From: Chaetodon trifascialis
Taxonomy: Eukaryota
DNA length: 64,000 nucleotides
Assembly (NCBI RefSeq): GCF_039877785.1
Contig: NC_092066.1
Span: forward strand, 5,379,152 to 5,443,151
Direction of reading: 5' to 3'
This document shows positions 10,460 to 40,233 of the stretch, piece by piece (the first letter of the stretch is position 1; every line of letters begins with the position of its first letter). The notes under the pieces are model-generated. The model did not search any database. It worked only from the letters and a program-made list of their open reading frames with translations, and was not told the origin of the DNA. Made by a program: the position numbers and the translations under genes.

Positions 10460-10511
<52 letters not shown>

Positions 10512-13500
10512 CTGATCAGCTTCTGTCAAAAACACCCTCCTCCTCACGCTCCTCCTCATCCCCTTTACCTCCCTTTAAATCCAGCTTGCTCGTCGTCAAA
10601 CCTCACCGTCCTCCTGCTCCGACACACTGTGTGACTGTGTGTGTGTGTGTGTGTGTGTGCGTGTGTGCGTGTGTGTGTCCTTGTCAGGTCAAAGGCAACA
10701 TGATCCAGCGAGAGAGCAAAGAAAGAAGTGAAACGCCGTCGGTCCCACCCAGACCAACTGAAGAGGTTCACAAGCAGTAGAACACAACTGGCACTCAGAG
10801 ACGTGGTCCATGTGAGACTATTCGTCCGTCCCTCTGCTGTGAATTTTATACTTAACGCTGTGATCTTTCCTCAGGAGATGAAGAGCATATCGACATACAG
10901 CAAAGTAAAACCAAGAGGAACTGAGGGTCATCAGGTACAGTTTGCACTTCTCAGATTTGCTCAGTGACTTGTGGGCTGTCTGCACATCTCTGCTTCCTCA
11001 GAGCCTGAATATATTTGAAGATATCTGTTAAAATACAATTAAAAGGAGTTAATGATTTTATATTCCAGCAAGCCACACAATGCTTCTGACTGTCATGCTT
11101 TGTATGGAAAGGTGTCACTAGTTTCTCATACTTTGTCCTCTGCAGGACAACAAGGACGTGAACTCCAGAGAGAAAAAAGCTAAAGCTGCAGAAAGTCCTG
11201 AAGTTCCCGTCAGACCTTCAGATGAGGTAGTTTAAGCTTTCAGCCTTATAGGAAAAAATGTCTGTGTGTCAGTTTGGAGCTGATGTGTGGTTAAAGAAAC
11301 TGCTCTGCTTTAATTTCAGGAGCTGAGCAGAGCAGAGAGACGTGCTCTGCAGAAGCACCATCAGGTACGGACAGTCAGGCCAACATATTGGTTTGTTATT
11401 GAATATCAGCTATTGGATATAATGGAGTTTTTTTCCCCCCTGAGTCAGAAATGTGTTTTGCTTATTGTTCCTTCACTTGATGTTTAACCTTCACTGTGCA
11501 GAACGAAGCATGTGCAGACTTTGACTCTTTGTCGAAAACACTTTTCCTGAGATTACTGTAGTTATAATCTAATGAGTTTAATTTGCTGCAGAGCCAATCA
11601 GATGACGAAGGCCTCAAAAACGAAGAATCTGCTGAAGCCAAAGGGAGAGACGAGAGCAAAACAGTACGTTTATCTCTTCATCACTGTCGATAAGATTGCA
11701 TTAATTGCTAATCAGAGGCTGACTGACTGCAGTATTTATCTTACGTCTGTGTGTGCTGAGCGTGAGACTTTCTCTGTCAGTCTATGTGTGATAGGACTCC
11801 ACATACATGAAGGTGTAAACAAACACAGTATTTGCTCCAACATGTAAACGTTCTAGTTCCTGCTTCCTACTTATCACTTCTTTCATTCAAATGACATGCG
11901 ATACCTCCGGGTTATTGTTACTGTGAGGTTTGTCCAAGCTCGTGGATTGAACTTCTTAACATCAGCTTCATTGTTGTATAATTCATAGACATTTCTCCAA
12001 AGTTCAGCCTGATATATTTGGTATTCCACTTTGGGATATCCGGTAGATTAGAACGATGTTTGGCTGCACAGCATGAATTTCTTTCCCCACAAAGCCACTG
12101 CTTATTGAGGGGCTGTTCAGTGGAAATAGTAAATCTCTCAGTGATGGGAGCAGATGATAATGAGATGAGACATACAGAAATAGAATAGTTACCTGCATGT
12201 TTGAGGGAAGTTATAGCCTCTCATCTAACACATCATCACTGTGCCGTTTCTTTTACAGACCAAGGTGAAAAAGCATCATAATCCGTTTATGCCTCGTGCA
12301 GCTGCTAAGGTTTGTTTTATTTTGATGTTTGCACTTCTTGTAGAGTCATGAAGACATTTGTCTTCTTTGCTCGTCCCTCAGTTTGTGAGACACGATGTTT
12401 GATTCATTACCTCCTCAAATCTTTGGCAAAGGCTGCAGAATGTTAGAATCTAAGTTCATTCACATGCAGCCTTGTGTAACCTCTTTCCTCCGGGCACTGA
12501 TTTGTTTCACTGCTATGCTCACACTTTGTTGTTTACTTCAGGCTCCGTCTGATGATGAGGGGCTGGGAGAAGAAGATGATCCTTCGTCCAAAGAGGAGCA
12601 GAAAGACGAGGAGGGCAAAGACAAAACAGAGGAGGTCTTTTAACTCATTTCCTTCCGCTCCATCTTTGCTTGTTGATTGGTTAAACAGTCAGCTGGAACA
12701 AATGCTTCAAAATCTTCCTCAAAGTAACACAGAAATCCTGATTTTTTTTTTCCTTTTTTTCATTTCAGACAAAAGTCAAGAAACCTAAAAGACACAATCC
12801 CTTCATGCCTCGAGTCAAGGTAACAGTCAAATATGTACCAGCTTGCTTCCTCACGTGTGGACAAAGCCTGCTTGTGTTTTAACACATCAGCTAACTGCAC
12901 TTTGTCCTCATTGAGCAGTTCACATCATTGAGGACAACACGATCGTCCGCATCCTTCCACCCTAAAAACAAAAATCAGGCATTTTTGTTCTCAGACAGCG
13001 GCTCTGTATCAGTCTGCAGCCTGTTCAGCAGACATTGTGTTTCTGCACGTCGCTGAACTGGAGAAACAAGAATCTGAGTGGGCATGATACGTCATCCTGC
13101 AGGTCACGGTCCTGAAGCGCTGTACGCCACATCCACCCATTCCAGGCATCCAGTGCTCGTTATTCTCTGCCAATTAAGTTCATTGATAGGTGCGTGTTGA
13201 ATATATGGAGGAAAAAAGTTGATGTCAGCAGGTGTTAACACAAATGAAACACGCTCCAGTGGAGGATCTGCATCACACCAGCCCACGTCAATACAAAGCT
13301 ACGTCAGAAATGCCCTCCTGTTGGCTGTTTAGTGCACATCGTTTGCTTTTCACTCTGTTCTGGTCTGAAACGTCTCTGTGGAACAAAAGAAGCTGTGTCC
13401 ATATCATGTTCACTTCCTCCTGCCGAATGTTCCACAGTGCAACATTTCTCCTTTGTTATGGGAAAGTTGCAGTTAAGCAACACTTTCACCCGTCACCATC

Positions 13501-16587: not shown

Positions 16588-17078
16588 GTAAGTGAATAGA
16601 TGTTCATATTTATATAACAATAATAATGTAATATTTCACTGTCTGGCATCTTTGCTCTCTCAAAGTGGTATTCAGCCATGCAGATTTCACGTGGAGTGTT
16701 GAGATGTAAAATATCTTCCACGACCTCAATATAATTATGAGAATAAAATTTAATTTGTTCTCTCCTCAAATCTCTGAAACGTCGCATTTGAAAAACTATG
16801 ATTGATAAAAACAGTGACTCAGAAACAATGCCAGCACTCCTCTGGATAATCCACAGAACATGCTGTCAGATGGTTCCTTTATTAGAGTAGCTCCAAAGAA
16901 AAAGCTGATGACAGAAGGTTGTGTGGATTATCAGAAAATCAGAACCTGGTTTCTACGGTTTTGTGGGAGTCGAATGGTTAAATGAAACGATCTGCATGCA
17001 GACGTACACCAGTGGTGAGTGAGAGACGATGACGTTTAAAGATAATGAAGGTTATAACTCTCGTCTTGCTTCTCTCAG

Positions 17079-18021
17079 GGCTTTTGCTGTGACGGCGGAG
17101 AAGGTGCAGAAGGGCATCCGTGTCTTCAACAAACTGTTCTCGGAGCGCGCTGAGAGCCTCTGGCAGCACGTCATCGACCTGAACAGCATCGCAGACGGCC
17201 TGGACAAGTTCAGCAAAAACACAAAGATCGCTCAAATCACCGGCGGCTCCACCAGTGCCATCGGGGGCGTGGCCACCATCGCCGGCCTCGCTCTGGCACC
17301 GGTCACCATGGGAACCTCCTTGATTGTGACAGCGGTGGGACTGGGTGTCGCCACGGCTGGCGGTTTGACGTCGGCAGGCGCCGGCATCTCCAACCAGGTC
17401 AACAACTCTATGGACCGCAAGAAGGTGGAGAAGATCGTGCAGGATTATCAGGAGAAGATGGTCGACCTCAACAAGTGCCTGAAGTTCATCAAGCAGGGAA
17501 TCGAGAACCTGAAGAAGTTCGACCTGATCAAGATGAAAGAACACGCCTACAACCGCGACTTCCCTGTGCTCAGCAGTAGTTTCTACGAGGACGGCGCCAT
17601 GGCAGGAAAGGCCATCCTCATCAACGCAAACGAGATCATGCGCGTGGTGCAGATCGCCAACGTGGCGGGCAGCACGGCGGCCAGAGCGGTCCAGATCGCC
17701 AGCATGGCCACCGGTGTGCTCACCGGACTCTTCGTAGGTATGGACATCTACTTCGTGGCCAAAGACTCCAAAGAACTCAAGAAGGGGGCCAAGTCCGAGT
17801 TTGCCGCCAAAATCAGGGAGGTCGCCACGCAGCTGCACGACGGTCTGGTGGAGCTGAACACGATACGAGAGGAGCTGCAGTGCACCGGGCCGGAAAACAA
17901 GGACGCAGGCGAAGAGAAAGAGAACGAGAAAGAAAACAAATACGACAGTTCAGATGAAGATGAAATCGACCGCATTAAAAAAGCCATTAAAAAGGACATC
18001 GAGAGCCGAGAATACGTTTGA
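17079..18021 (+). CDS. ApoL-repeat gene 1, terminal exon: a complete apolipoprotein-L (ApoL) domain plus a short acidic tail, with the stop at 18019-18021
   Basis: The acceptor is tctctcag|g at 17078, and phase 2 gives K-AFAVTAEKVQKGIRVFNKLF... The translation has the hallmarks of the ApoL family. A glycine/alanine-rich hydrophobic hairpin (KIAQITGGSTSAIGGVATIAGLALAPVTMGTSLIVTAVGLGVATAGGLTSAGAGI) is followed by ...ILINANEIMRVVQIANVAGSTAARAVQIASMATGVLTGLFVGMDIYFVAKDSKELKKGAKSEFAAKIREVATQLHDGLVELN... This matches the long ORF 17029-18021 in the track. An AATAAA at about 19622 could be the polyadenylation signal. Confidence 0.85.
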
Positions 18022-24539: not shown

Positions 24540-26441
24540 GCAGGATGGAGGCGTGTATGATGAAGCCAGAAGTCAAAAAGAAGCCGAAGCTGGTGAGAAC
24601 AGTCACAGGTTTACTGAATATTGTAGAACGTGTAAAAAAACACAGATGGAAATATGAATTACTGCATCATCACTCAAAGAGCCTCATGTTTTCTTCTCTG
24701 CTCGCAGCCTAAACCTCCTCCAAAGCCCACAGAGGTACTGTAACAACCCTTTGATCAGTCAATCATTAGCTTGAGTGGTTGTTTATGTGCGACTTCAGGA
24801 TGTTACAGCGAGTTAAACTGTCGTTACAGAGACAAAGAAATGACCCAGAGAGACCAGCTCCTCTGGTGCCCCCCCGACCTGCAGACACTGTGAGTGCTCA
24901 CCGACCTGGAAGACGTCCTGATCTTTTACAGACCAGAGGTGTTTCTCTGAAGGGTCTGCCATATGTTTTTATTATGTTTACCTTCTACTGGAGGAGCAGT
25001 GTGCCAACATTTCTAAAGATCTGCTAATGTTGAAATAGATTGCATAAGCTGGGTTCCAGTGGAGAGATGTTTTCCACTCTGTGAGGTGGAAAACTGAAAG
25101 ATAATCCACAAAATCCAGATCAGCAACAAAGATATATGTAGTTTTTATGCTGCACACGCATTAAAACTTAACACAGGTGTACCTACAGGCCAGTCTAAAA
25201 CCAGTATGACAAAGTGCTCCACCACTGAACGTGACTGCTTTTAGCTGTGTTCTGTTGTCATAAGTTTTCTTTGAGGAAATGCCCTCTTTGGTTCTTTAAA
25301 TAAAGGTTGAATGAATGAACATTAACACAAGCTGACGTCTGTAATTAGCCACTGATCAGGACTGATATGAGCAGTAAAAACAACAAACTCTCGTAAAGCC
25401 GCTGAAGACACAGAGGAAATATGGAGCACAGGCCACTTTATAAGATTTACTTGGAGACGAAAATATTTTAACCATTCGTGTTTTCTGTGCAGGAGCTGAG
25501 TCAGACACAATACCGCATGAAAAGAGCAGCAATGAACAATGAGGTACCTTCTTTTTTTACATTTCCATTATTTCTGTTTTACTCGATAGTTTCCTGTAAA
25601 GAGAGATCGAAGCGGGGGAGGGGATGATGTGTGAGAATATCCTGGTAAATGTTGAGGACAACCAGACTTTTCTTGATTTAAATACAAGTAAAACAGGGAT
25701 TTGTGATGGCGAAGTGGTTCAGACACATGCTGTGAAAAAAATCATCTTTGAACAAAGAAAAACAAAATGAGATATGAAAGATCATGTGACAAAAATGATG
25801 CTACAGACGCACCACCAAAAAGATCAGTGCTTTAAACATCAGTGTCATGATTTAATATGTGGGTTTACATGTCCAAACTATATTCTGACGTACCAAAAAC
25901 ACTCTTATTATGGCTGCCTTCAGGTGTTTTTCCTCACTTTTTTTGTGTGTTTCAGACCAAAGGAAACTTGATCCAAACAGAGACAAAAGAGAAACCGACT
26001 GAATCTCCCGTGGTTCCACCCAGACCCACAGAAAAGGTACGAAACACCCAAACACTCATCATATCATGATACTCAGCAGTACTAGTATTGTCGTATTTTA
26101 GAGCAGTGAGAACAATTTACAGTGAAGAACCGACCAGAGCTGCACGAGGTTCCACGTTTCTGTTCCTGTTCCAGATCTCTTTTGTTATTGTTCCCTCGTG
26201 TGTGTGTGTTTGTGTGTGTGTGTATGTGTGTTTGTAGGAACTGAATGCCACAACCAGATACAGTGAGCGCAGGAGGGTACAAGCTGAGGACACACAGGTA
26301 CACACACACACACACAATGAAATACTTTGTTCCTCCTTGCTTGGTTTTATAAATCACAGTTATCGTCCTTCCTCTTCCTCATCAGACTTCCAGAGAAAAC
26401 AACCAATCAGAAGCGCCCAAAGATGAGGCAGACTTCAAACA
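24540..26441 (+). CDS. ApoL-repeat gene 2, N-terminal exons: putative start ATG at 24545, then proline/basic-rich VPPRP modules
   Basis: Exons are phase 0 with AG/GT boundaries.
- 24540-24592: ATG at 24545, MEACMMKPEVKKKPKL
- 24708-24734: PKPPPKPTE
- 24830-24889: RQRNDPERPAPLVPPRPADT
- 25493-25543: ELSQTQYRMKRAAMNNE
- 25956-26036: TKGNLIQTETKEKPTESPVVPPRPTEK
- 26238-26297: ELNATTRYSERRRVQAEDTQ
- 26385-26441: TSRENNQSEAPKDEADFKQ
The 25493, 25956 and 26238 exons are paralogous to gene 1 exons 11320, 10688 and 10875. The true initiator could lie further upstream. Confidence 0.5.
26197..26234. repeat. (TG)n microsatellite (imperfect)
   Basis: A gtgtgt run immediately upstream of the acceptor of exon 26238, in an intron of gene 2. 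Confidence 0.9.
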
Positions 26442-26593: not shown

Positions 26594-29500
26594 AGTGATC
26601 CGACGGTCCTGACTGGGATGTTTCGGCGGAGCCAAAAAGGCCAAACGCCTTCGTTCACTGTAAGCGATGCAGCTGCAGCTCGTCTCTGCTCCGTAAATCA
26701 CACATGACCTCTCTAAGTTAAAACCAGAGGCTCAGTTCAAAACATCATCTGCTTTTTGAAGGTTTTTAGAGTCAGTGTAACTTGTCGTTTGTGTTTGCTT
26801 CACCTGCAGAGGACAATTTTGAAACAACAAAATCTTGATATGTAGGCCTACATGATCTCATAGATGTTGATTCAAGAACTTAAATATACTAATACTCAGT
26901 CACATAAAGCATAAACGTGTGTTTTAGAGCTTTGAATCAGCAGCTGTTGAGTGTCTGTCTGGTTTTCTTTCTTCCTCAGAGCTATCTGATCGACAGCTGC
27001 GCTGAGGAGGAAAAGTCTGACGATGCCCCGGCCAAACAGGCTCCTGGCAGCAAACCGGTGTGTGCGTATGTACATTATGCGTGTGCGTCACTGTTGATGT
27101 TCTCAGCTGGTTTGTGACATGTGACTGCGTTCAACAGAGTGCTCTGAAGGGAGTAATGAAAGGATTACAGTTCAAGTCATCACCGAAGGTATGAAGCACC
27201 GCCTGCCTCGGTGTTTTCTGCTGGTGGCGGCTGCAGTGTTACAGCGTCTTACACCTGTAAAAAGTACCCTCTCCTGTGTGGTGGCGGTGGTAGTAGTAAC
27301 GACATGTGGTTTTATTTTTCTCTGCTGGCACATCCCTGTTGAAGAATCAGTGCATTACATCCTATTTTTTTACATTTCTGTATCAAAATGTTCATATCTT
27401 TCAGTGTTTTACCTCCTGGATTTATTTTAATGTTTATTTTTTATCGGACTCCTTTGGTGGCTTCAGGGTCTTTCGTCCAGTCTGGGACTTTGGTTGCGTG
27501 TCGTTCTCTGTCTGCACTCACTTCCTGTCATCTCTCGGCTTGGAAACATTCTCTCACTGTCAGCATTTAAAACCTGCAGCGTCACAGCTTCACACAGTGA
27601 CACATGTGGGCTTACGGTTACGCGCTGCTGCCTGACGTTGAAATAAAGATAGAGCACAGTAGAAAGCATAAAAGAAGTAAAATACAACATTTTGAAAGGA
27701 GTGCAGCAGCGCAGACTGTGAGTGCAGTCTGGATCTGGAAAGTCATAAAAGCTAAAGTGAAGACACGTTTTTAGCTTTCCTTTAAAAATATTTAGCAGGT
27801 GAGATCTGCCTGTGATCCACAAAGGCTGCTGCTGGGAACACTGGTCAGAATTTATTCTGTTTATTTTAAGTTTTAAATTAAATTTCTCAGTAAGGTCACC
27901 TGAAACTTTGAGGACTTTTGGCTTTTAACTTTAAGATGTTCATCCTCCTTCATCCACAAAGCAGTTGTAAATACGGACGATGAGGTGACTGGAAGCAACA
28001 GGACGATCTTTATGAAACGTTAAGCAGTCAAAATGTCTGTCTGTTCTCTCGTCTGCTTGTACTGATGATAAAATCAGGATGATCATAATGTCGCTGAAGA
28101 TTGGTGTCTCTTCTCTAAGGCCAGTGTGGAGCCAAGTCCAGGCGGCGTCACGGAGGACGCAGGCGCAGAAAAGGAACAACCTGCAGAAAGAAACAAGCAG
28201 GAGAAGAACGCAGAACCCAAACAGGTAAGAGACGAATGACAGCGTCTGACTGCCGTCGCTAATATGTGCTTTCACAGTGTGTTCACTTAACGGCGTTAAC
28301 ATCTGATTTTTTGTGTCAACCTCTCCGTCAGGACTTCGGAGGTCTGATCGCCGGAATGTTTCGGAAAACTCCCAAAGAGAAAACGCCATCTCCCGCGCTG
28401 ACGGTACCATCGAGTCTTCTGCTCGTTTTCTGGTCCAACGTTCTGACTTTCAGCCTCTGACTCTCTGTTTTGCTCACTGACAGGTCAGCAAAGCAGACAG
28501 CGACCCTGAAGATGCAGAAGAAGCAGAGGAGAAAACATCTGAACAATCCCACGTAGGTCTTCTATTTATTTCTTCTTTTTTCGCTCTTCTGAAACATAAG
28601 AACATTTGGAGTGGAGGGGGGTTTTAAGGATGGATCCAGGCCCCCGCTATGTGTGGCTATGAGCTTCTCACTATCAGCAGATCTGTGAGGGGATTCAGTA
28701 ATCAGCGTCTGCAGTCAGTCAGCTGACGACGGTTTGACCTCGTCAGCGGCACAGAGCTCAAACTGTAATCTCTTCAGTTGTCACTCACTTGTTTAGTGTT
28801 TGGATTCCCAGAAAAAGTCAGAGTCAGATAAGCGTCCTGTGTCTGAACATCCCAGCCACTTTCAGGCGGCGTGTCTTCTGTTTCCTTTATTTGTATCATC
28901 ACAAACTGAAATCTTTTGCAGGAAAAAGGAGGCTTCTTCTCCGGCATCCTTAAAAAACCCAACAAAGCACCAGAGGAGACTCCTGCACAGGTGAGGGACA
29001 AAAAGTGGCTTCTTCCTCCTTAAAACACAACAGAAAAGTTAATGTTGGTGTTTTTCATTTCACTGTGTGTGTTTCTTGCTTCCCGGTGGTGTTTCAGGAG
29101 AATCTGAGTGTCAGCAGCGAGCTGTCCGCCAGCAGTGACAGTCTGTCTGAAAACAAGGTGAGCAGCTCTGCGTCACCGTCCCAAACTTATCTTTAATGAC
29201 AGTGTACACACAGACGCCTCACTGACCTGACCTTGACCAAAATAAATCCTCCATTACTGAACGTGTGCTCGTGTCTGTCTCAGGAAAAAGGAGGAATATT
29301 CAGCGGGTTGTTCAAGAAGTCTCCGAAAGCGGCAGAAGCGGCTCAGACCGACGAGGTGATGGAGCTGAAAACAAGTCAGCAAGATAAATAACGTCATCAG
29401 TTTAATCCACACTCACACTGAACCAGCTCGTGTTGTGTTGCAGGACCAACAGTCTCTACATGACAGTCTGTCAGGCAGTAACGACAATCTGTCTGAAAAC

Positions 29501-32500
29501 TCAAAGGTGAGCTCAGCAGTGTTCGTATGACAGCAGCATCGTCAGTGTTATCACATGCAGCAGTCACTGACCCTGCAAATCTGCCTGATGTCAGCAGGAG
29601 AAAGGAGGATTTTTCAGCGGGATCCTCCGGAAGTCTCCCAAGATTCCCGGAGAGGGAACACCTGGGCAGGTAAAAACGGTTTTGCACATGTTTTAGATGC
29701 TCAGTAACAAAACAAACAGATGGAGTTCGGCGTGTGAGTACATGAAAGATCAGAGTAATCGAAGTGGTCAGCGACGGGGATCTTCACTTTCTGTCAAACC
29801 GCTGAGACTTTGTTGTTTATGTTTGTTTCAGGATAAACAGCAGCTGCAAACGGACCCATCAGACAGTAAAGAGACTGAGAACAACAGCACGAACGTAAGG
29901 AACCCAGAGTGACTGAGTTAAGGAGGAGGCTGACTCTTATATCCACTTTGAACACTCCTCTTTTCCTGCTAACGACTGACTTCAAGCCTGATGTGTTAAT
30001 AGAAGCTGATTTGTAGCTTTACGTATTTCTTTCCTCCTTCCTGTATTTCCTGTACCAATAACTGAAAGAAAGAAAAGGTTTTTGCGAGCGAGTTCTTCTC
30101 TTCTTCACGTTATCAGGAGAAAGGAGGCGTTTTCAGCGGCATGTTCAAGAAATCTCCCAAACTGTCAGAGAAACCCCGACTGGAGGAGGTAAAGATTTAT
30201 AATCTGAGCATCTGCAGAATGGATGAAGTCATCTGAAAAGTAACTAAAGCTCTCAGACAAATGTAGTGGAGTAAGGTTACATTTCTATTACTCTAGTAAA
30301 GTACAAGTACCTTGAATTTTGTACTTAAGTACAGTCTGAATTGTGGCTCACGGCCTCCTCAGCCTTCCTGTCAATCTTCAGTCTTCATACTCTCACAGGT
30401 GCAGTAACTCTTGTGTTGCTCGTGTTGTGTTCAGGGTGCAGAGTCGTTGCACGGCGAGCTCTCCATTAGCTCCGACAGCCTGTCGGAGAACAAGGTGAGT
30501 CCTCATGATGGAAGAATATCTGCAGCTCCGGAGGAGGATCGGCCTCCTGATGCTGAAATGAAAGAAAAGAGGTCGTCGGTTTGCCTCAATGTGTTTTCTG
30601 CTCTCTGTAGGAGAAAGGCAGTTTGTTCAGCGGACTCCGGAGAAAGACTCCCAAAGCAGCCGGAGAGGTACGGCTCCTCAAACACGAGCAGGTGTCATGA
30701 GCATGACCACATGCAGCGCAGCCAGTTCGATGGATGTTCTTGAATGTGCTCACAGGCTGTAACATGAGTCATTGAAGTATTGAAGCATCTTCTGTTTCCT
30801 GGAGCTGCTCTCTGTTTCTGACTGTTTTATTCTCATTTCAGGAGAATCTGTCGGCACAGAAAGATCTGTCAGCCAGTAACGACAGTCTGTCTGAGGCTGC
30901 CAACACCAAGGTCAGCTTTTGCTGTAAAAGGAAGATTTGATTTCATTGTGTACATTTTCTATATTTCTTCATTAATTCGTTGTTGTCTTTCTGATTGTAG
31001 TAGTATGACGTGTCTCCATGTGTTTCCACATATGTTCTATGTCTGGAAGACTGAATTTAACTGTGACGTGTAAAATAAATGACTGTGTTTCAGGAGAAAG
31101 GAGGCGCCTTCAGTGGAATATTCAAGAAGTCGACCAGGCTTGCAGACAGTCCTCCCACAGAGGAAGTAAGACGTCCTCTCTGTTTGTCCCATCCAGTCTT
31201 CCTTTAATATTCTTAAACAGGTGTCAAGTGTCTCATAGGTAGTTCCTTTTAATCTCAGGTGTAAAAGAGCAGTCAGGGAGCTGGGCTCAGTGTTAATGAT
31301 GAAACATACTGTGGCTCTGACTGTTGTCGTCTTTCCTCAGGACAAACAGCCACCAGGCGATGAGCTCTCAGGTAGCAGTGAAGCTCCGTCTGAGAGCAGC
31401 GCCAAGGTGAGTTTTTCTTTTCTGCTTCATTCAGAAAACGGTCCTGAATAACTTCAGCTGAAGAGAGAGCACCCACTGCATGAACATGTGTGTTTCAGGA
31501 AAAAGGAGGAATATTTAGTGGAATATTTAAGAAGGCTCCAAAACCTGCAGACGCTGCTCAACCGGAGGAGGTAAAACTGTCATTTACAGCAAAGTCGACC
31601 TGTTTCATTACCTGTTTGTTGGTGGAAAATTAGGAACAAAAACTCAAGTGATTAGACGTTGGTGCAGATTCAGTATTTGAGCATTTTTTTTAACATTTTC
31701 ACATGATCGTCATGTATCCCATGACCATCTGTTATCAAGATATACTAATGCAAAACCTTTTATCACTTCTCACAGGACGAGTCTCCTGACAAAGAGCTCT
31801 CAACCAGCAGCGAAAATCTATGTGAGAACAAACAGGTGAGCGAGTTTAAGACGATGAATGACTTTGTTTCGTAAATGCTTCACACTCTCGCAGCTCATCC
31901 TGAAGCCTTTTTCTTGTCTGTCTCATCAGGAGAAAGGTGGACGGCTGCTCAGCGGACTCCTGAAAAAGACTCCCAAAGCGTCTGGAGAAAAGACGGAGTC
32001 GCAGGTGAGTTAGTGTTTACAGGACGTGAGATCAGTTTCCAAACCTGCACACAAATTCACCTGTTTCATAAAACATCAACGGGCCTGTTTCAGGACAGAG
32101 AGGCTCAGAGCGAACTGTCGGCCAGCAACGACGACCTGTCTGAGGGCAGCAGCACCAAGGTGAGCAGCGCAGCAACAAAAAGCTCCAGGTACACGTCTTC
32201 TGAGGGAGCGTTCACTGACACCCTGCTCTCTTTCAGGAGAAAAATATCTTTAGCAACATGTTTAAGAAGCCGCAGAAAGCAGCAGAGGGTGCTGCAGCAG
32301 ACAAGGTACCGAGATTTGATTCGGCCCATTAAATCAGCGTTATTTTAGTAAGTGTAGTGGATTTTTACTGTCGTCTGGTCTGAATGCAGGAGCTGGAGGA
32401 GAACAGTAAAGATCGGTTATCAGGCAGCTGTGAAAATCTGTCCGACGCCGCCCCGAAGGTACTTCAGCATCAAAAGAAAGCCTCTTCTTCTCTGTTTTTC

Positions 32501-35423
32501 TGTGTGCTGCTGTCACATGAACACGGACTGAAACCTGATCACAGAGATCAGATTGAGGATGAGATGATATCTGTGTGTTCAACTAGAACAGATTACAAAT
32601 ACAGATAGGCACATCCTCGAGTGTGAGTGCGTCAGTTTGAGTCAGGTTGAGCTGACTTCCTTTGGGAGCGGCAGTAACTTCTGACTCTTGATTCACTCTG
32701 AATGTGTTCACTTGAGAAAATTGACAAAGATCTGTGTTTCAGGAGAAAAAAGGAGGCCTGGCTGGCATCTTCAAAAGGTCATCCAGCATCGATAACCTTT
32801 TCGATGAGGTGAGTGTCGGCCCTGTGCGGCCTCTGTTACGCCTGACGATAACGTCACTTTGACATGAATGAAATGAAACCGTGTTAATGGCTTTTTATCC
32901 CTGGTCTTAAATCAGGAGAAAGGTGGGCTGTTCAGTGGACTTCAGAGGAAGAAAACACCCAAAGCGTCTGGAGATGAAGCAGCTGCAGAGGTGAGTTTTA
33001 TGTTACGCTGCGAGCATCACTGTCTGTGGTTATCGTCCGCATTAATACAACGTCCATTGCTATTTTTTCAGGACAAAGACGACCAGAAGGAGCTGATGGC
33101 AAGTAATGACAGTCTGTCTGAAAACAACACCACCAAGGTACAGTGTTTATTTAAATTCACTTTAACATGCAGCAGACTTTCTCATGTACATAAAAAACAC
33201 ATTTTAGAATATTTTAGTTTGTTTTTGCTTCAGTTTGCACTTAAAAAATGAACATTTCGACATGCCAGTGCTGTTTTGTTTTATTTTTAACTGTGTTCAA
33301 TGTCTGTTTGCAGGAGAAAAGTATTTTCAGTGGCATGTTCAAGAAGACTTCCAAACCAGCAGAGGAGACGACAGCAGACGAGGTACAGTAATGACTCCTT
33401 CACATGAAGTTTATACTTTTGCTCTTAGTTTTGCTCTTTCTTATGTTTTATTTTCGGTTCAGGAATTAAACGCCGGTGATGATCAGATGTTCTCTGCCAG
33501 TTGTGAAAATCTGTTAGAAGCGACCACATCAAAGGTGTGAATGATGTCCGACCATCACACACAGCCTGTTTTTCTCTGTTCTGCCACTTACGATTGATTG
33601 TTTACGTGTGGATGTTTCGTCCGTTTCAGGAGAAAACTGGAGGACTGGCAGGGATCTTCAAGAAGTCTCCCAAGCCGGCTCCACGCTCCATTGTTACTAA
33701 GGTGACCGGAGGAGCTCGCTTTGTTTGATCTCATTTCTGTTTTTTATGGTAAAATTCTTCAGAAATAACCTTCAGCAAGTTGAAAAAAAAGTTCCTTTTT
33801 GTCCTCCAGGATCCGCTGAGCGACTCAAAGGAGCTGTCCGCCAGCTGCGACAGCCTCGTAGAAACCGCTGAGGTGAGACCTGAAGTCTGTGGATGCACTT
33901 GGTGACACTCAGAACAGAAAGCACGAGAAAGAAACGCTCAGCACACTTAAACCCTGCTGGACCAGCACTACCAGGAGACCTCGTGATTTAGACATTAGCC
34001 GCCACATCTGTACTTTATGTGGTGCATTCACACAAAATAAATTAAATCTGTATTTCAGTTTTATACTTTGTCCTCCAAGTACGACGTTGAAGCCCTGCGT
34101 GGCATCAGTGTTTCATTAGACGAGCGTCCATTCAGCAGCCACATTAATGACACAGTTTAGGGTTGTTTTTCCGACTTTCTTCATGTGTTACAAGCATAAA
34201 TACATGTTTGCAGCTCGTTCACATCAAGCAACAGCTGCTTTGCGGCTGTGCTTTAATGCGACAAACTGTTGTTGTCTGTCGTCGCTCATTTCAAATCTCA
34301 GCGAAGCCGCTGCTGCTCAACATGCAGCGAGCTGCGATCAAATCTCGTGTTCGTTCAGTTCAGCTTTAACGTCTGTTTCCTGACAACAGAAAACAGATGT
34401 TAAAAGAGCATTTGAAGCTCAGTTTGCAGAGCCTTCCTCTCTCCTGATCCTCTGCCAGCAAACATATAAGACAGATTGTCGGTGCCATTATTTACAGCTT
34501 TACATTTACTTTTTAACATCCCAGTTGGTTTTTGAGCTGCGACCCAGATGTTTCAGTGTCAGTAGCTGCGTTTCCATTACAGTTGTTCGCAAAATAAAAG
34601 CGATATTTCTGAAATTTCGACAAAGTTCAAGTGCTACTTGCAGGTGTTTCCATTGAACGGTGTTTTGCGAACTAACCGAAATTCTCGTAAATTCTCGGCC
34701 GTCCCGCGAGACTGGAAGATGGCCGAAAGCGTTATGCGTCTCGGTACACTGATCTCAGGAGCTGGTACGGCTGTTGCTGTCCTTATTATGAACAGAAGGC
34801 GGAGGCAACGTATAACTGTTCAAAGGCGAAGCCCTTATGTGTGGCAGCGGCCACGAATAAGGGATTTCTGGGAGAAGATTGTAAATGAGGAATTCACAGA
34901 CGAACTGTGGATACAACATTTTCGGATGACCCGGGCCACGTTCAACGAGCTTTGCGATGTTCTTGAACCTCTTGTGGCACCAGATGCGACATGTAAATGC
35001 GAAAAAAGTGTTTCCATTACACTTTTGCGATACGCTTTTATATTGACACGTCTGAAAAACCACCTCATGAGAGCGTAAAAATGTTTTTGCGATATTTGAG
35101 AGGATTTTCGAAATATAGGTGTTTCCATTACCAGTATTTTATTGCGATATTTAGGTTTTGCGCATTTCTAGGGGTAATGGAAACGCAGCTACTGACTCCA
35201 AACACTGAAATTTATTTCATTTTATTTTGCAGGAGGATCAACTGTTTACTAGTCAGGATAATCTGTTGGAAGCTGTGAGCGCCTCAAAGGTGAGTCTTGT
35301 AGAGTGTATTATTATTCTGTCAGCTCGTTCGGACTTTCAATGAATGCTTCATGTTTTATCTGTTGAACAGGAGAAAAAAGGAGGGTTTGGTGGAATTTTC
35401 AGGAGGACGCCCAAAACACATCA
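26594..35423 (+). CDS. ApoL-repeat gene 2, exon-pair repeat array: about 33 short phase-0 exons, mostly alternating type A (EKGG-FSG-FKK-PK) and type B (D--ELS-S-DSLSEN--K)
   Basis: All exons have AG/GT boundaries and lengths that are multiples of 3.
- 26594-26659: SDPTVLTGMFRRSQKGQTPSFT
- 26980-27057: SYLIDSCAEEEKSDDAPAKQAPGSKP
- 27138-27188: SALKGVMKGLQFKSSPK
- 28120-28224: ASVEPSPGG...EKNAEPKQ (AAG acceptor)
- 28332-28403: DFGGLIAGMFRKTPKEKTPSPALT
- 28484-28552: VSKADSDPEDAEEAEEKTSEQSH
- 28922-28990: EKGGFFSGILKKPNKAPEETPAQ
- 29098-29157: ENLSVSSELSASSDSLSENK
- 29284-29355: EKGGIFSGLFKKSPKAAEAAQTDE
- 29444-29506: DQQSLHDSLSGSNDNLSENSK
- 29598-29669: EKGGFFSGILRKSPKIPGEGTPGQ
- 29832-29894: DKQQLQTDPSDSKETENNSTN
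- 30117-30188: EKGGVFSGMFKKSPKLSEKPRLEE
- 30435-30494: GAESLHGELSISSDSLSENK
- 30611-30667: EKGSLFSGLRRKTPKAAGE
- 30842-30910: ENLSAQKDLSASNDSLSEAANTK
- 31094-31165: EKGGAFSGIFKKSTRLADSPPTEE
- 31341-31406: DKQPPGDELSGSSEAPSESSAK
- 31499-31570: EKGGIFSGIFKKAPKPADAAQPEE
- 31776-31835: DESPDKELSTSSENLCENKQ
- 31930-32004: EKGGRLLSGLLKKTPKASGEKTESQ
- 32094-32159: DREAQSELSASNDDLSEGSSTK
- 32237-32305: EKNIFSNMFKKPQKAAEGAAADK
- 32390-32458: ELEENSKDRLSGSCENLSDAAPK
- 32743-32808: EKKGGLAGIFKRSSSIDNLFDE
- 32916-32990: EKGGLFSGLQRKKTPKASGDEAAAE
- 33072-33137: DKDDQKELMASNDSLSENNTTK
- 33314-33382: EKSIFSGMFKKTSKPAEETTADE
- 33463-33534: ELNAGDDQMFSASCENLLEATTSK
- 33630-33701: EKTGGLAGIFKKSPKPAPRSIVTK
- 33810-33872: DPLSDSKELSASCDSLVETAE
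- 35233-35289: EDQLFTSQDNLLEAVSASK
- 35370-35423: EKKGGFGGIFRRTPKTHQ. Confidence 0.7.
34551..35209. mobile_element. non-autonomous Harbinger (PIF/Harbinger superfamily) miniature DNA transposon in an intron of gene 2, carrying a remnant of the HARBI1-like transposase N-terminus
   Basis: Terminal inverted repeats are tttcagtgtcagtagctgcgtttccattac (34551-34580) and gtaatggaaacgcagctactgactccaaacactgaaa (35173-35209). Sub-terminal gtgtttccatta(c) repeats occur at 34644, 35010, 35121 and 35170. The internal ORF 34638-35078 encodes ...RRRRQRITVQRRSPYVWQRPRIRDFWEKIVNEEFTDELWIQHFRMTRATFNELCDVLEPLVAPDATC..., the conserved N-terminal region of Harbinger/HARBI1-type transposases. The DDE core is absent. 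Confidence 0.65.
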
Positions 35424-37342: not shown

Positions 37343-37541
37343 GTGAGTCTCATTTATGCTTAAAAAGTCTTACATTCATCGTGGTGAACCCTGCAGAAAC
37401 ATGTTGTTCTGTATTTGTCAGCTTTGGGGTTTAAATGTAAATATATTAAGACTCCATGTTTTGCTTTGTTCCTCAAATTTTGAACATTAGAACTTTAAAC
37501 TGCACCTCGTGAGTCTCACGCCTTCACTCGTGTCTCTCCAG

Positions 37542-37956
37542 GGCGCTGGAGCAGGCAGCTGATCGCGTCTACATGGCAGCTCGTCTGTTTGTGCGCCTTT
37601 TCAACCAGCGGGGGGCGTCCTTACAGCATCGCATCCTGGAGCTTTTGGCTCTGGCCGACGCTGCGGATCAGTTCCACAAGAAAACGGTGACGGCTGCGGT
37701 GGGGGGAGGGGTGGCCAGCGTCGCGGGCAGCGTGGCAACCATCACGGGGCTCATCCTGGCGCCGTTCACATTCGGTGCCTCCATCATTGTCATGGCGGTG
37801 GGCATCAGTGTGGCGACGGCGGGCAGCATCGCCTCAGCGACAGCCAATATCACAGATACAGTTCACTCCAACATGGACCGAAAGAAGCTGGAGAAGATGA
37901 TCCAGAGCTACCAGGAGGAGATCAAAGACATCAGAGAGTGTCTGGAGTTCGTGCAG
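37542..37956 (+). CDS. ApoL-repeat gene 2, ApoL domain part 1 (the hydrophobic G/A-rich hairpin region)
   Basis: The acceptor is ctctccag|g at 37541. Phase 2 gives M-ALEQAADRVYMAARLFVRLFNQRGASLQHRILELLALADAADQFHKKTVTAAVGGGVASVAGSVATITGLILAPFTFGASIIVMAVGISVATAGSIASATANITDTVHSNMDRKKLEKMIQSYQEEIKDIRECLEFVQ, and the donor is cag|gtgagg at 37957. The region is collinear with gene 1 residues of the 17079-18021 exon. It overlaps track ORF 37573-37998, whose read-through into the intron hits a stop. Confidence 0.85.
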
Positions 37957-38059
37957 GTGAGGAACCTCAGGTGTTACACATATCCGGTGTTTATGTGAGT
38001 GTGTACTGACAGACAGAGGTCCATCATAGTCAGATATGATCAGATCAGACAGTGAAGTT

Positions 38060-38460
38060 TGGCTCATCTCTCTCTGTGTCTCTTTCCCTCGCGCTCTCTC
38101 TCTCTCTCCCTCTGTGTGTTTCTCTCACTCCCTCTCTCTCTCTGTTTGTGTCTCTCTGTCTGTCTCGTTCTCTCTTGCTTCCCCCCCTTTCTGTGTGTGT
38201 CTCTCTCCCTCCTTCCCTCCCTCCCCCACTGTGTCTCTCTCTCCCTGTGTGTCTACCTCTCTCTTTCTGTGTGTGTGTGTCTCTGTCTCTCCCCCTCTCC
38301 ACCTCCCTCCCTCCCTGTGTCCTTCTCTCCCTGTGTGTCTCTCTCTCCCTCCTTCCCTCCCTCCCTCTCTGTGTCTCTCTCTCTCTTTTTCTGTGTGTGT
38401 CTGTCTCTGTCTCTGTCTCTCCCTCTCCCTCTTCGCCTCCCTCCCCTTGAGGTTTCTGCC
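38060..38460. repeat. TC-rich simple/low-complexity sequence ((CT)n, (CTCC)n and (CTGT)n variants) filling the intron that splits the ApoL domain of gene 2
   Basis: About 400 nt are almost entirely C/T, with interspersed tgtg. This generates spurious long ORFs on both strands (38036-38536 +, 38045-38632 -). Confidence 0.9.
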
Positions 38461-38585
38461 TGTTAAAAGGAAGTTTTTCCTCTCTGTAGATAAAGATTTT
38501 GGGGTCTGTCCCAGCTCTATATGGAAAGTGTCCTGAGACAACTTCTGTAGTGATTTGGTGCTGTATTGTCTCTGTGCGTCTTGTA

Positions 38586-40233
38586 GGCCGGTATGGACAC
38601 CCTGCAGGAGTGGGACTTTGAGAAATACTCACAGAGTGCTGCCAAAAAGGCTCTGAACCACAACCTGAAGCACGTGATGAAGGAGGGCGGCCGTGCCGGA
38701 AAAGCCCTGATGATCAACACCGATAAGCTCATCAGCACTGTGCAGGTTTTGGGCGCTGCAGGAGGCGCCGCCAAAGCCGCCCAGGCCATCAGCGTCACCA
38801 CAGGGGTCATGTCGGCCCTCTTCCTGGCTCTGGATGTTTTCTTCCTCGCCAAAGACTCCCACGAGCTCCGCAAGGGCGCCAAAACTAAGTTTGCCAAAAA
38901 GATCCGGGACGTCTGTAAAGAACTTCAAGACGGCCTCCTGGAGCTGAACAAGGTGAAGACGCAGCTGCAGAAGACCATGGACGGCATAGAGGTGGAGGAG
39001 TACGAGGAGATTGAGGAGGTGGAGGTGGAGGTGGACGAAGATTTAGAGTCGGATCCGAAGAAGCTGGCCGAGTTGGAAAAGGAGCTGGACATCCTGGAGG
39101 AGAAACTGGACAGGAAGGTCGAAGAGGAGCAGAAGAAGAGTAAAGAGATGGAGAAGGAAAACTTGAAAAATAAGACTGAGAAAAAGGAGGAGAAGAGCGT
39201 TAAGGAAAAAGGAGAGCCACAGGAAAAGAAGAAGGAAGAGGAAACGGGAGAAAAAGACGCTAAGAAAGAGGGAAAGAAGGAAAATAAGAAGGGGAACAAA
39301 GGTGAAGAAGAAAGCAAGCTTGAGATCCCTGACATGGAAAAAGAGCAGAAAAATGAGACCCTCAAAGAGGCCAAAGAGGAAGTTTTAAAGGAACAATCTC
39401 AGAAAGGAAAGAAGAAGGACAAAGACACCGAGAACCGAATTACAGCTTCAAAAGAAAAGGACGAGAGCGAGAGAGACACAATGAGAGACAGCGGAGCAAA
39501 TAAAAAGACAGACGAGAAGGGAAAAGAGGGCGTTAAGAGCAGATCAGGTGACTCCAAAAAGGAGGACTGGGGAGGAAAAGCAAGTTCTGAGAGGGTCAAG
39601 ACAGAGAGAGACAGTGAAAGGAGTCAGAGCAGGAGAGAGGAGGAAAGAGTGATGAACAAAGAGAAGGAGGAGGAGAGCGGGAGCACGAGGAGGCACAGCA
39701 GCAGGAGCGACAAAGACAGACCCCACAGGAGTGAAAGAGGGAGCAAACATGATGAGGAAAGAGGCACCAGCAAATACAGCGACAGGACGGAGAGCCGGAG
39801 GATGGAGGAGGAGAGAGGAGTGAGGGACTGGAGAGCTGAGATGGCAAAAAGCAGAGAGGAGAAGAGAGAAAGCAAGGGAGGACAAGAAGCTAAGAGAGAG
39901 ACGGCGAGGGAGGATTCGCATCGGAGTCACGGAGCGGCGTCGAGGAGGGAGCATCCGGAGAGAGAGGAGAGGAGTCACTACAGGAGAGGAGCAGCCCCGC
40001 ATGATGACCAGAGGGAGAGAGACGAGAAACGAGGGAGCAGGATCGAGAGTGCGAGGAGGCAGTTTGAGAGGGCGGAGGAGGAGGAGAGGGCGAAGAGGAG
40101 AGAGGATGGAGAGTGTCAGAGGAGGGATCAGCAGAGGAGAGGAGGTGAGGAGAGAGACAGGGAGCACGGACACAGCCGGCGAGGATCCCGAGCGCGATCC
40201 AGCGTGCTGCTGGAAGACGGACTGTACATTTAG
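38586..40233 (+). CDS. ApoL-repeat gene 2, terminal exon: ApoL domain part 2, then a long K/E-rich and a long R/E/D/S-rich low-complexity tail of about 400 aa, with the stop at 40231-40233
   Basis: The acceptor is cttgtag|gcc at 38585, and phase 0 gives AGMDTLQEWDFEKYSQSAAKKALNHNLKHVMKEGGRAGKALMINTDKLISTVQVLGAAGGAAKAAQAISVTTGVMSALFLALDVFFLAKDSHELRKGAKTKFAKKIRDVCKELQDGLLELNKVKTQLQ... This is homologous to the second half of the gene 1 ApoL exon. The tail continues as EVEEYEEIEEVEVEVDED...KKEEKSVKEKGE...RSDKDRPHRSERGSKHDEERG...RRGSRARSSVLLEDGLYI*. It corresponds to track ORF 38593-40233. An AATAAA lies at about 40532. Confidence 0.85.

What the first reader, a model, noticed from the sequence alone, without database searches (positions are those of the whole stretch)
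37957..38585. Paralog-specific intron inside the ApoL domain, filled with TC-rich simple sequence and sitting at a proto-splice site
Gene 1 encodes its ApoL domain in one uninterrupted exon (17079-18021). Gene 2 has a 629-nt intron at the homologous position, with exonic context cag|gtgagg ... tag|gcc. In gene 1 the uninterrupted sequence at that point is ...aagcag|ggaatc..., an MAG|G proto-splice site. About two thirds of the intron is CT-rich low-complexity repeat. This is either an intron gain by simple-repeat expansion or insertion at a proto-splice site in gene 2, or a precise intron loss in gene 1. Both are uncommon and informative events in vertebrates.
Basis: partly seen in the sequence, partly recalled or inferred. 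Interest (0 to 1): 0.7.

Follow-up and report, generated by a model that had tools for sequence, protein, structure and literature searches.

The report
Old teleost intron swollen by LINE fragment
The intron that splits the ApoL domain of the second gene is real, but it is an old intron shared by this gene's relatives in every teleost lineage sampled, and its TC-rich filling is a later retrotransposon fragment that landed inside it, so it is an ordinary though tidy case of fish intron gain.

Summary
Gene 2, the apold1a / si:rp71-1g18.13 orthologue, has a phase-0 GT..AG intron at 37957-38586. It splits the ApoL domain between ...EFVQ and AGMD.... Gene 1, the apol1 orthologue, encodes the same region in one exon.

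The intron is neither recent nor made of simple repeats. A same-position, same-phase intron occurs in Megalops (80 nt), Paramormyrops (292 nt), an unidentified relative (135 nt) and Micropterus apold1b (1137 nt). It is absent from Albula apol1, two gar genes, and one gene each from sturgeon, bichir and caecilian. The intron-bearing genes form one clade with 100% bootstrap support. The best reading is therefore a single gain before the living teleosts diverged, with gene 1 keeping the ancestral state.

About 500 of the 630 nt (38067-38566) come from the 3' UTR of a LINE, meaning its TC-rich stretch plus conserved tail. This fragment inserted into an intron of about 130 nt.

This is a new example of a known kind of event. 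Interest is low to moderate.

The parts
17079..18021 (+). Gene 1 (teleost apol1 orthologue), last coding exon. The whole ApoL domain and the stop codon lie in one exon. The point homologous to the gene 2 intron lies between 17493 and 17494 (ATC AAG|CAG GGA).
   Evidence: ORF 17029..18021. tblastn with Eleginops apol1 P0124 aligns aa 154-475 to 17077-18018 in a single HSP. Pfam ApoL 4e-37. Codon alignment.
37542..37956 (+). Gene 2 (apold1a / si:rp71-1g18.13 orthologue), exon encoding the first half of the ApoL domain. It ends ...GAG TTC GTG CAG.
   Evidence: Acceptor ...ctctccag|G at 37540-37541. tblastn of g2 aa 1-138 matches 37543-37956. The transcript contig L001 is colinear over 37549-37957.
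37957..38586 (+). Phase-0 GT..AG spliceosomal intron, 630 nt, splitting the ApoL domain between Q and A.
   Evidence: Sequence. The exon HSPs abut at 37956 and 38587. A transcript from a relative joins the two exons exactly. Same position and phase in L002, L004, L007 and L009.
37957..38066 (+). 5' part of the original short intron, with donor gtgagg and the in-frame TGA at 37996-37998.
   Evidence: No other copy in the window or in the fetched loci. Together with 38567-38586 it makes 130 nt, against 135 nt in L007. The two align weakly (z 3.6), best at the two ends.
38067..38432 (+). TC-rich low-complexity block: 87% C+T, only 4 A, with an internal 86-nt period. Interpreted as the TC-rich region of a LINE 3' UTR, possibly expanded further.
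   Evidence: TRF rows 38067-38432 and 38198-38385. Composition. Many copies of the same repeat family carry a TC-rich stretch at the same place, just upstream of the conserved tail.
38446..38566 (+). Conserved 3' tail of a LINE family, in sense orientation, with an internal deletion of about 85 nt. The matching blocks are 38446-38482 and 38500-38566.
   Evidence: The 23-mer at 38459-38481 is unique in the window and none is expected by chance. The 21-mer is found on 41 metagenome contigs. Block matches are 77-100% identical. Consensus alignment. Copies L039, L017 and L031 have a 782-1032 aa ORF upstream on the same strand; for L039, Pfam finds Exo_endo_phos and RVT_1.
38567..38586 (+). Remaining 3' end of the original intron: pyrimidine tract and acceptor (tgtctctgtgcgtcttgtAG).
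   Evidence: Aligns with the L007 intron end ttttgtgcctcttgcAG.
38587..40233 (+). Gene 2 last exon: second half of the ApoL domain, followed by a long E/K/R-rich tail and the stop codon.
   Evidence: ORF 38593..40233. tblastn of g2 aa 139-279 matches 38587-39009. Pfam ApoL on profile positions 222-297. Orthologues are 92-97% identical across the junction.

Best explanation
The feature is a normal U2-type GT..AG intron in phase 0. It was gained once, at a CAG|G point inside the ApoL-domain exon, in the common ancestor of the teleost apold1a/apold1b genes. That ancestor lived before the living teleost lineages diverged and after this gene lineage separated from the apol1 lineage, to which gene 1 belongs. 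Gene 1 simply keeps the ancestral one-exon ApoL domain.

The intron was originally short, about 80-135 nt. In the lineage of the window species, a 5'-truncated LINE copy inserted about 20 nt upstream of the acceptor, in sense orientation. The copy carried only the 3' UTR, made up of a TC-rich low-complexity stretch and the conserved tail. It accounts for about 500 of the 630 nt.

Shown:
- the intron position and phase;
- its distribution across homologues;
- the absence of any gap at the site;
- splicing in a relative's transcript;
- the repeat identity of 38446-38566.

Inferred:
- the polarity (gain), from parsimony on an unrooted tree combined with the species tree;
- that the TC block arrived with the LINE rather than growing in place;
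- that the branch point now lies in LINE-derived sequence.
For: 1. Junction. The exon HSPs end at 37956 and start at 38587 with canonical gt..ag. A 1202-nt Logan contig from a relative (L001, SRR28040467) carries an uninterrupted 383-aa ORF and is colinear with four window exons. It joins ...GAGTTCGTACAG to GCGGGTATGGAC.

2. Same site, same phase, GT..AG in other apold1 genes:
- Megalops L002 8056-8135, 80 nt;
- genomic contig L007 816-950, 135 nt;
- Micropterus apold1b L004, 1137 nt;
- Paramormyrops L009 5951-6242, 292 nt.
In addition, at least 26 cluster representatives are fragments that break at query residues 137-141.

3. One-exon ApoL domain in genes outside the clade:
- window gene 1;
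- Albula apol1, L051 15868-16686;
- gar P0269, L005 14312-15169, and a second gar gene at L005 3566-4276;
- sturgeon, L003 10091-10903;
- bichir, L006 44380-45192;
- caecilian, L008 62852-63682.

4. Neighbour-joining tree with 200 bootstraps. The teleost apold1 genes (a, b, osteoglossomorph and Albula sequences) form one clade at 100%. Teleost apol1 plus gar P0237 form another at 100%.

5. There is no indel at the site in any of 44 homologues.

6. LINE origin of the filler. The residual 130 nt compares with 135 nt in L007.
Against: - The non-teleost orthologue of apold1a/b is not firmly identified. Gar P0269 is 51% identical to gene 2 and 54% to gene 1, the deep nodes have only 40-56% bootstrap support, and the fetched flanks gave no synteny evidence.
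- The tree is neighbour-joining and unrooted.
- The exon structure of gar P0237 could not be examined.
- There is no transcript from the window species itself. The window ORFs are not in the protein collection.
- No target-site duplication or A-rich end is visible for the LINE fragment, and the roughly 55 nt that precede the tail in the consensus (CAACCCAACCGG...GCCGCCCACC) are missing or degenerate in the window.
- The TC block could therefore have expanded partly in place. The short Megalops intron is itself 74% C+T.
- The metagenome contigs used as repeat copies are only presumed to be fish host DNA.
Confidence: 0.8

Rival explanations
1. The intron is ancestral to the ApoL genes of bony vertebrates. 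It was then lost precisely, for example by recombination with a cDNA, in gene 1's lineage and in the other intronless genes.
For: On the unrooted tree, the presence/absence pattern is explained by a single change on one branch. If the root lay on that branch, a single loss would fit as well as a single gain. The deep nodes are weakly supported, at 40-56%.
Against: Rooting on that branch would require the apold1 lineage to predate the split between ray-finned and lobe-finned fishes, and then to have been lost from gar, sturgeon, bichir and amphibians. No such gene appeared in the searches. Gene 2 is closer to the gar and sturgeon genes (48-51%) than to the amphibian genes (34-38%). All seven genes sampled outside the clade, from five distant lineages, lack the intron.
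Confidence: 0.08
2. The intron was created in gene 2 by insertion or expansion of the TC-rich element at a proto-splice site, giving a transposon-borne or repeat-borne intron.
For: About 80% of the intron is repeat-derived. Transposon-made introns have been reported in fish, in notothenioid slc26a2 (PMC12357937).
Against: Orthologues and the apold1b paralogue have an intron at the identical site without this element: 80, 135, 292 and 1137 nt, with no blastn similarity to it. The repeat is nested. It leaves 110 nt of unrelated intron on its 5' side and 20 nt on its 3' side, and that 3' remnant aligns with the L007 intron end. The splice sites themselves lie outside the repeat.
Confidence: 0.02
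3. The intron was gained independently at the same site in apold1a and apold1b, or in several teleost lineages, because the site is a hot spot.
For: Convergent intron insertion sites are reported for fish slc26 genes (PMC12357937). Intron sequences are not alignable between the distant species.
Against: Five of five apold1-clade genes sampled have the intron at the same codon boundary and in the same phase: the window, L007, Megalops, Paramormyrops and Micropterus apold1b. These cover Elopomorpha, Osteoglossomorpha and Percomorpha. One gain in the stem of a clade with 100% support is simpler. Introns this old are not expected to remain alignable.
Confidence: 0.04
4. Gene 2 is a pseudogene or is read through. 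On this view 37957-38586 is an insertion that disrupts the exon, and translation stops at the TGA at 37996-37998.
For: There is no transcript from this species. A plain ORF caller splits the gene at this point.
Against: Both halves are 92-97% identical to orthologous proteins, with no frameshift. The downstream exon keeps a 546-codon open frame. The splice sites are canonical. A relative's transcript is spliced exactly here.
Confidence: 0.02

Closest known systems
Lineage-specific intron gains in ray-finned fish genes: serpins (Ragg et al. 2009, PMC2746811), melanocortin receptors (PMC3151243), slc26a1/slc26a2 (Torii et al. 2025, PMC12357937) and mtnr1b (PMC7541902)
   Same: A spliceosomal intron appears inside a formerly continuous coding exon. 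It is restricted to one fish clade, with no indel in the protein, and the flanking exon sequence fits MAG|N (here CAG|G). Tetrapod and early-branching ray-finned genes lack it.
   Different: Those cases are mostly confined to Eurypterygii or to fishes with compacted genomes. This intron is shared by elopomorph, osteoglossomorph and percomorph genes and by both apold1 paralogues, so it is older, dating to the teleost stem or earlier. No trace of the mechanism that made it survives. The ApoL family was not among the cases I found.
Transposon-made introns (notothenioid slc26a2 in PMC12357937; 'introner' elements)
   Same: Most of the intron's length is transposable-element sequence.
   Different: Here the element is nested inside a pre-existing intron. 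The splice sites and both intron ends lie outside it, and relatives have the intron without the element.
Retroelement insertions in introns of mammalian APOL genes (AluJ in APOL1-4; MER41G exonisation in APOL4; PMC8557400)
   Same: A retroelement lies in an intron of an ApoL-family gene and has the potential to offer extra splice sites.
   Different: The host lineage and element class differ (a fish LINE 3' UTR rather than a primate SINE or LTR), and the intron is not homologous. No exonisation is shown here.

Membership tests
U2-type GT-AG spliceosomal intron | GT at the 5' end and AG at the 3' end, with a pyrimidine tract before the acceptor | tested here: met
   CAG|gtgagg ... tgtctctgtgcgtcttgtag|GCC.
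U2-type GT-AG spliceosomal intron | Removing it restores a continuous reading frame that matches homologous proteins without a gap | tested here: met
   The exon HSPs abut at aa 138/139. The alignment with 9 and with 43 homologues is ungapped at the site.
U2-type GT-AG spliceosomal intron | It is absent from mature transcripts | tested here: inconclusive
   Met for a relative: transcript contig L001 joins the two exons exactly. No transcript of the window species was available.
Lineage-specific intron gain | Present at the same position and phase throughout one monophyletic group of genes | tested here: met
   Five of five apold1-clade genes have it. The clade has 100% bootstrap support.
Lineage-specific intron gain | Absent from paralogues and from outgroup species | tested here: met
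   Window gene 1, Albula apol1, two gar genes, and sturgeon, bichir and caecilian genes all have a one-exon ApoL domain.
Lineage-specific intron gain | The outgroup gene is the true orthologue, so that the polarity is secure | tested here: inconclusive
   Gar P0269 is the candidate, but the deep nodes have 40-56% support and the fetched flanks gave no synteny evidence.
Proto-splice-site insertion (MAG|R) | Intronless homologues carry MAG|R at the homologous point | tested here: inconclusive
   Gene 1 AAG|C, gar P0269 AAG|C, second gar gene CAG|G, sturgeon CAG|A, bichir AAC|A, caecilian CAC|C. MAG is present in four of six, and the full MAG|R in two of six.
Transposon-borne intron / introner | The intron ends coincide with the element ends, and the element is present wherever the intron is | tested here: not met
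   The element occupies 38067-38566, inside 37957-38586. Relatives have the intron without it.
5'-truncated LINE insertion | Sequence matches the 3' end of a dispersed repeat whose full copies encode an endonuclease and a reverse transcriptase | tested here: met
   41 contigs carry the 21-mer. Consensus match to 38446-38482 and 38500-38566. The L039 ORF hits RVT_1 at 2.5e-36 and Exo_endo_phos at 2.1e-13.
5'-truncated LINE insertion | Target-site duplication and an intact 3' terminus | tested here: not met
   No flanking duplication is visible. The consensus end ATAAATAAAATT is not recognisable after 38566. This is expected if the insertion is old, but it leaves the boundaries approximate.
ApoL domain proteins (Pfam PF05461) | Match above the Pfam gathering score | tested here: met
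   Gene 2 scores 112.5 bits and gene 1 scores 128.7 bits, against a cut-off of 25.9.

The most novel reading that the evidence does not exclude
Since the gain, the intron has constrained the protein at the exon junction. In all 15 apold1-clade proteins examined, the residue before the intron is Q. It is encoded by CAG in the five genes read at DNA level. The residue after the intron is A, E or V, all of which have G-initial codons. Intronless homologues vary freely at both positions: K/Q/E/N/H before and Q/H/T/K/S after. If this holds, it would be a clean, datable example of splice-site requirements fixing two amino-acid positions inside a conserved membrane-protein domain for the whole history of the living teleost lineages. 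In the window lineage, the LINE insertion 20 nt from the acceptor may additionally have replaced the branch point and placed a 366-nt pyrimidine tract plus a decoy AG (38450-38451) upstream of the real acceptor.
Probability: 0.35. Interest if true: 0.4.

Novelty: new member of a known kind. Interest (0 to 1): 0.3.

Why it matters
Intron gains are rare in vertebrates but are known to be more frequent in ray-finned fishes. This case adds a well-bounded and unusually old example to that list. There is no indel at the site, both paralogues carry the intron, and non-teleost fishes and an amphibian lack it. The intron can also serve as a simple character that separates the apold1a/b genes from apol1 in the confusingly named fish ApoL family.

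The case is also a caution for readers of raw sequence. The striking TC-rich content says nothing about how the intron arose, because it is a nested LINE fragment. No open question becomes testable from this finding, and the mechanism of the original gain can no longer be recovered.

Tried and rejected
1. I looked for other copies of the intron's 5' flank (110 nt) and 3' part (153 nt) in the window and in the fetched fish loci. There were none, so the window alone could not show a repeat.
2. A scan of viral contigs for a second tail motif found nothing.
3. I tested synteny between the window flanks and the gar, sturgeon, bichir, Megalops, Micropterus and caecilian loci by tblastx. Only repeat exons and a LINE matched, so this gave no help with orthology.
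4. The second gar ApoL gene upstream of P0269 is not the gar apol1 gene P0237, at only 39% identity.
5. I tested for origin by tandem duplication of exon sequence, comparing each intron with its flanking exons in four species. No score exceeded the shuffled controls; z ranged from -1.2 to 2.0.
6. Exact look-ups of three window ORFs, intended to identify the species or find its transcripts, found nothing in the collection.
7. Look-ups of P0025 (Misgurnus) and P0002 (Boleophthalmus) found no gene on record.
8. A first tree run with Biopython timed out and was replaced by my own neighbour-joining code.
9. A literature search for 'apold1a' returned nothing. The APOL evolution paper PMC8557400 does not state the exon layout of the ApoL domain in its text.
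10. Pfam found nothing for the ORFs at 401-925 and 34638-35078.

Full report
**What is in the sequence**

The window carries two tandem ApoL-domain genes on the + strand.

Gene 1 encodes its ApoL domain and stop codon in one exon, 17079-18021. This rests on ORF 17029..18021 and on a single tblastn HSP with Eleginops apol1, aa 154-475.

Gene 2 encodes the same domain in two pieces:
- 37542-37956, ending GAG TTC GTG CAG;
- 38587 onward, starting GCC GGT ATG, in an ORF that runs to 40233.

Between the two pieces lies gtgagg...cttgtag. The acceptor AG sits at 38585-38586, so the intron is 37957-38586. Read-through would stop at the TGA at 37996-37998.

Both products match Pfam ApoL. They are 44% identical, with no gap near the junction. 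The intron is 73% C+T. A 366-nt block at 38067-38432 is 87% C+T and contains only four A.

**A correction to the proto-splice argument**

In the ungapped alignment, gene 2's ...C L E F V Q | A G M D... pairs with gene 1's ...C L K F I K | Q G I E.... The homologous point in gene 1 is therefore ATC AAG|CAG GGA (17493|17494), not AAG CAG|GGA.

At the true site, the intronless homologues read as follows:

| Gene | Site |
|---|---|
| Window gene 1 | AAG\|C |
| Gar P0269 | AAG\|C |
| Second gar gene | CAG\|G |
| Sturgeon | CAG\|A |
| Bichir | AAC\|A |
| Caecilian | CAC\|C |

The site is often MAG, but the full proto-splice consensus is not a general feature.

**Which genes these are**

Gene 2 is the orthologue of the fish genes that sources call "apolipoprotein L domain containing 1a" or si:rp71-1g18.13. 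Identity is 92-97% in percomorphs and 82-83% in Danio and Megalops. A second group at about 77% identity is called apold1b or si:cabz01007802.1.

Gene 1 is the orthologue of fish "apolipoprotein L, 1". Identity is 70-94% across teleosts and 58-59% to gar and sturgeon proteins.

Full-length apold1a proteins are 785-1703 aa, with the ApoL domain in the middle. In the window this corresponds to many short repeated upstream exons and a long charged tail.

**Is the junction really spliced?**

All annotated orthologues read straight through ...CLEFVQ(A/E)GM... without an insertion. A 1202-nt Logan contig from a relative (L001) holds an uninterrupted 383-aa ORF. It is 85-91% identical in nucleotides to four successive window exons and joins them exactly at 37956|38587. 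No transcript of the window species itself could be found.

**Distribution of the intron**

I fetched genomic loci for homologues and mapped the exons by tblastn.

An intron at the same codon boundary, in phase 0 and with GT..AG ends, is present in these genes:

| Gene | Locus and coordinates | Length |
|---|---|---|
| Megalops atlanticus apold1 | L002 8056-8135 | 80 nt |
| Unidentified relative, genomic contig | L007 816-950 | 135 nt, AT-rich |
| Paramormyrops kingsleyae | L009 5951-6242 | 292 nt |
| Micropterus salmoides apold1b | L004 | 1137 nt |

In the representative search, at least 26 cluster representatives are fragments that begin or end at query residues 137-141. This is what ORF callers produce when an intron interrupts genomic contigs.

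The ApoL domain is a single exon in these genes:

| Gene | Locus and coordinates |
|---|---|
| Window gene 1 | 17079-18021 |
| Albula glossodonta apol1 | L051 15868-16686 |
| Gar P0269 | L005 14312-15169 |
| Second gar ApoL gene | L005 3566-4276 |
| Sturgeon P0236 | L003 10091-10903 |
| Bichir P0375 | L006 44380-45192 |
| Caecilian P0377 | L008 62852-63682 |

**Polarity**

I built a neighbour-joining tree of 44 ApoL domains from 269 columns, with 200 bootstraps. All teleost apold1 genes (a, b, osteoglossomorph and Albula sequences) fall in one clade at 100%. Teleost apol1 plus gar P0237 form another clade at 100%. The remaining nodes are weak, at 40-56%.

The intron therefore maps to a single branch. 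For that change to be a loss, the root would have to lie on that branch. The apold1 lineage would then have to be older than the split between ray-finned and lobe-finned fishes, and missing from every non-teleost sampled. Nothing or 34 suggests this. Gene 2 is also closer to gar and sturgeon genes (48-51%) than to amphibian ones (34-38%).

I conclude that there was one gain in the stem of apold1a/b, before the last common ancestor of the sampled teleosts (Elopomorpha, Osteoglossomorpha, Percomorpha) and before the a/b split. Gene 1 shows the ancestral state. My confidence is about 0.8. The main weakness is that the non-teleost orthologue is not pinned down: the flanks gave no synteny evidence and the structure of gar P0237 is unknown.

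**What the filler is**

The intron's 5' 110 nt and its last 153 nt have no other copy in the window. However, the 21-mer TGTTAAAAGGRAGTTTTTCCT (38461-38481) occurs on 41 metagenome contigs. I presume these contigs are fish host DNA.

Aligning the copies gives a consensus tail:

...GAGGTTTCTGCCTGTTAAAAGGAAGTTTTTCCTCGCCACTGTCGCC...GGTCTAGACCTACTCTATATGTAAAGTGTCTTGAGACAACTTATGTTGTGATTTGGCGCTATATAAATAAAATT

This matches window 38446-38482 (up to 100% identity) and 38500-38566 (77-90%). About 85 nt between the two blocks are deleted in the window.

Three contigs carry a 782-1032 aa ORF upstream of the tail on the same strand. The ORF on L039 hits the endonuclease family Exo_endo_phos and the reverse transcriptase family RVT_1. 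The tail is therefore the 3' end of a LINE.

Many copies have a TC-rich stretch, from plain (CT)n to ctctccctcc-type sequence, immediately upstream of the tail. This is the arrangement seen in the window. I therefore read 38067-38566 as one 5'-truncated LINE 3'-UTR insertion in sense orientation, possibly with further slippage.

What remains of the intron is 110 + 20 = 130 nt. This is close to the 135 nt in L007, and the two align best at their ends (z 3.6).

Caveats: no target-site duplication is visible, the very end of the element is not recognisable, and part of the consensus just upstream of the tail is missing. The short Megalops intron is itself 74% C+T, so some in-place growth cannot be excluded.

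**How it works**

The intron is an ordinary spliceosomal intron, and its removal is required for a full-length ApoL domain.

The following points are inference only. The LINE tail ends about 20 nt from the acceptor, so the present branch point probably lies in LINE-derived sequence. The 366-nt pyrimidine block is followed by an AG at 38450-38451, and further AGs lie at 38488-38489 and 38549-38550. These could act as decoy acceptors.

In the 15 apold1-clade proteins, the residue before the intron is always Q, and the one after is A, E or V, all with G-initial codons. Intronless homologues vary at both positions. This is consistent with splice-site constraint on the protein, but it is confounded by the high overall conservation of the clade.

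**Origin of the old intron**

No signal of the original mechanism is left. The introns show no similarity to their flanking exons, so there is no sign of tandem duplication. The introns of distant species do not align with one another.

**Comparison with what is known**

Intron gains are reported as rare in vertebrates but recurrent in ray-finned fishes. Examples are serpins, where the flanks fit MAG|N (PMC2746811), melanocortin receptors (PMC3151243), mtnr1b (PMC7541902) and slc26a1/2, including transposon-made introns in notothenioids (PMC12357937).

The present case belongs to this kind. It differs in being older and shared across the teleost lineages sampled, and in having its transposon nested rather than causal. 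I found no paper on it. The intron is already present in public gene models, since the annotated proteins are spliced correctly here.

**Verdict**

The proposed mechanism, simple-repeat or transposon birth of the intron, is rejected. This is a new member of a known kind, with interest of about 0.3.

Noticed in passing
window 4600-8000 and 28100-33900 (+): Both ApoL genes are preceded by arrays of short repeated exons encoding ...GG(I/L)FSGMFKK(S/T)PK...-type units. These match the N-terminal repeats of full-length apold1a proteins (785-1703 aa) and the Megalops locus. Gene 1 may therefore start well upstream of 10 kb.
   Followed up: partly
window 39000-40233 (+): The last exon of gene 2 continues for about 400 codons as an E/K/R-rich low-complexity tail after the ApoL domain. 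The tail is conserved in outline in orthologues such as P0244.
   Followed up: no
window 401-925 (+): A 174-aa ORF resembles the C-terminal part of a non-LTR retrotransposon protein. It has no Pfam hit but a strong tblastx match to bichir locus L006 8656-9559. It belongs to a different element from the LINE tail in the intron.
   Followed up: partly
window 57370-57735 (-): An exon encodes an RNA-recognition motif (Pfam RRM_1, 7.8e-14). By eye it resembles RALY or hnRNP C. It belongs to a neighbouring gene on the opposite strand.
   Followed up: partly
window 42788-42912: A perfect (AC)62 microsatellite. Other CA/GT runs lie at 10461-10508, 10628-10678, 26198-26235 and 54586-54628.
   Followed up: no
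window 37954-37956 / 38587-38589, and alignment columns: In the apold1 clade the codon before the intron is always Q (CAG), and the codon after it starts with G (A, E or V). Intronless homologues vary at both positions. This may reflect splice-site constraint on the protein.
   Followed up: partly
window 38450-38451, 38488-38489, 38549-38550: AG dinucleotides lie inside the LINE-derived part of the intron. The first follows the 366-nt pyrimidine block directly. They are candidate decoy acceptors, and using any of them would add stop-containing sequence.
   Followed up: no
L003 1-746 (-) and L005 3566-4276 (+): In sturgeon, a KIAA1755-like RhoGEF gene lies upstream of the ApoL gene. In gar, a third and more divergent intronless ApoL gene lies 6 kb upstream of P0269.
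   Followed up: no
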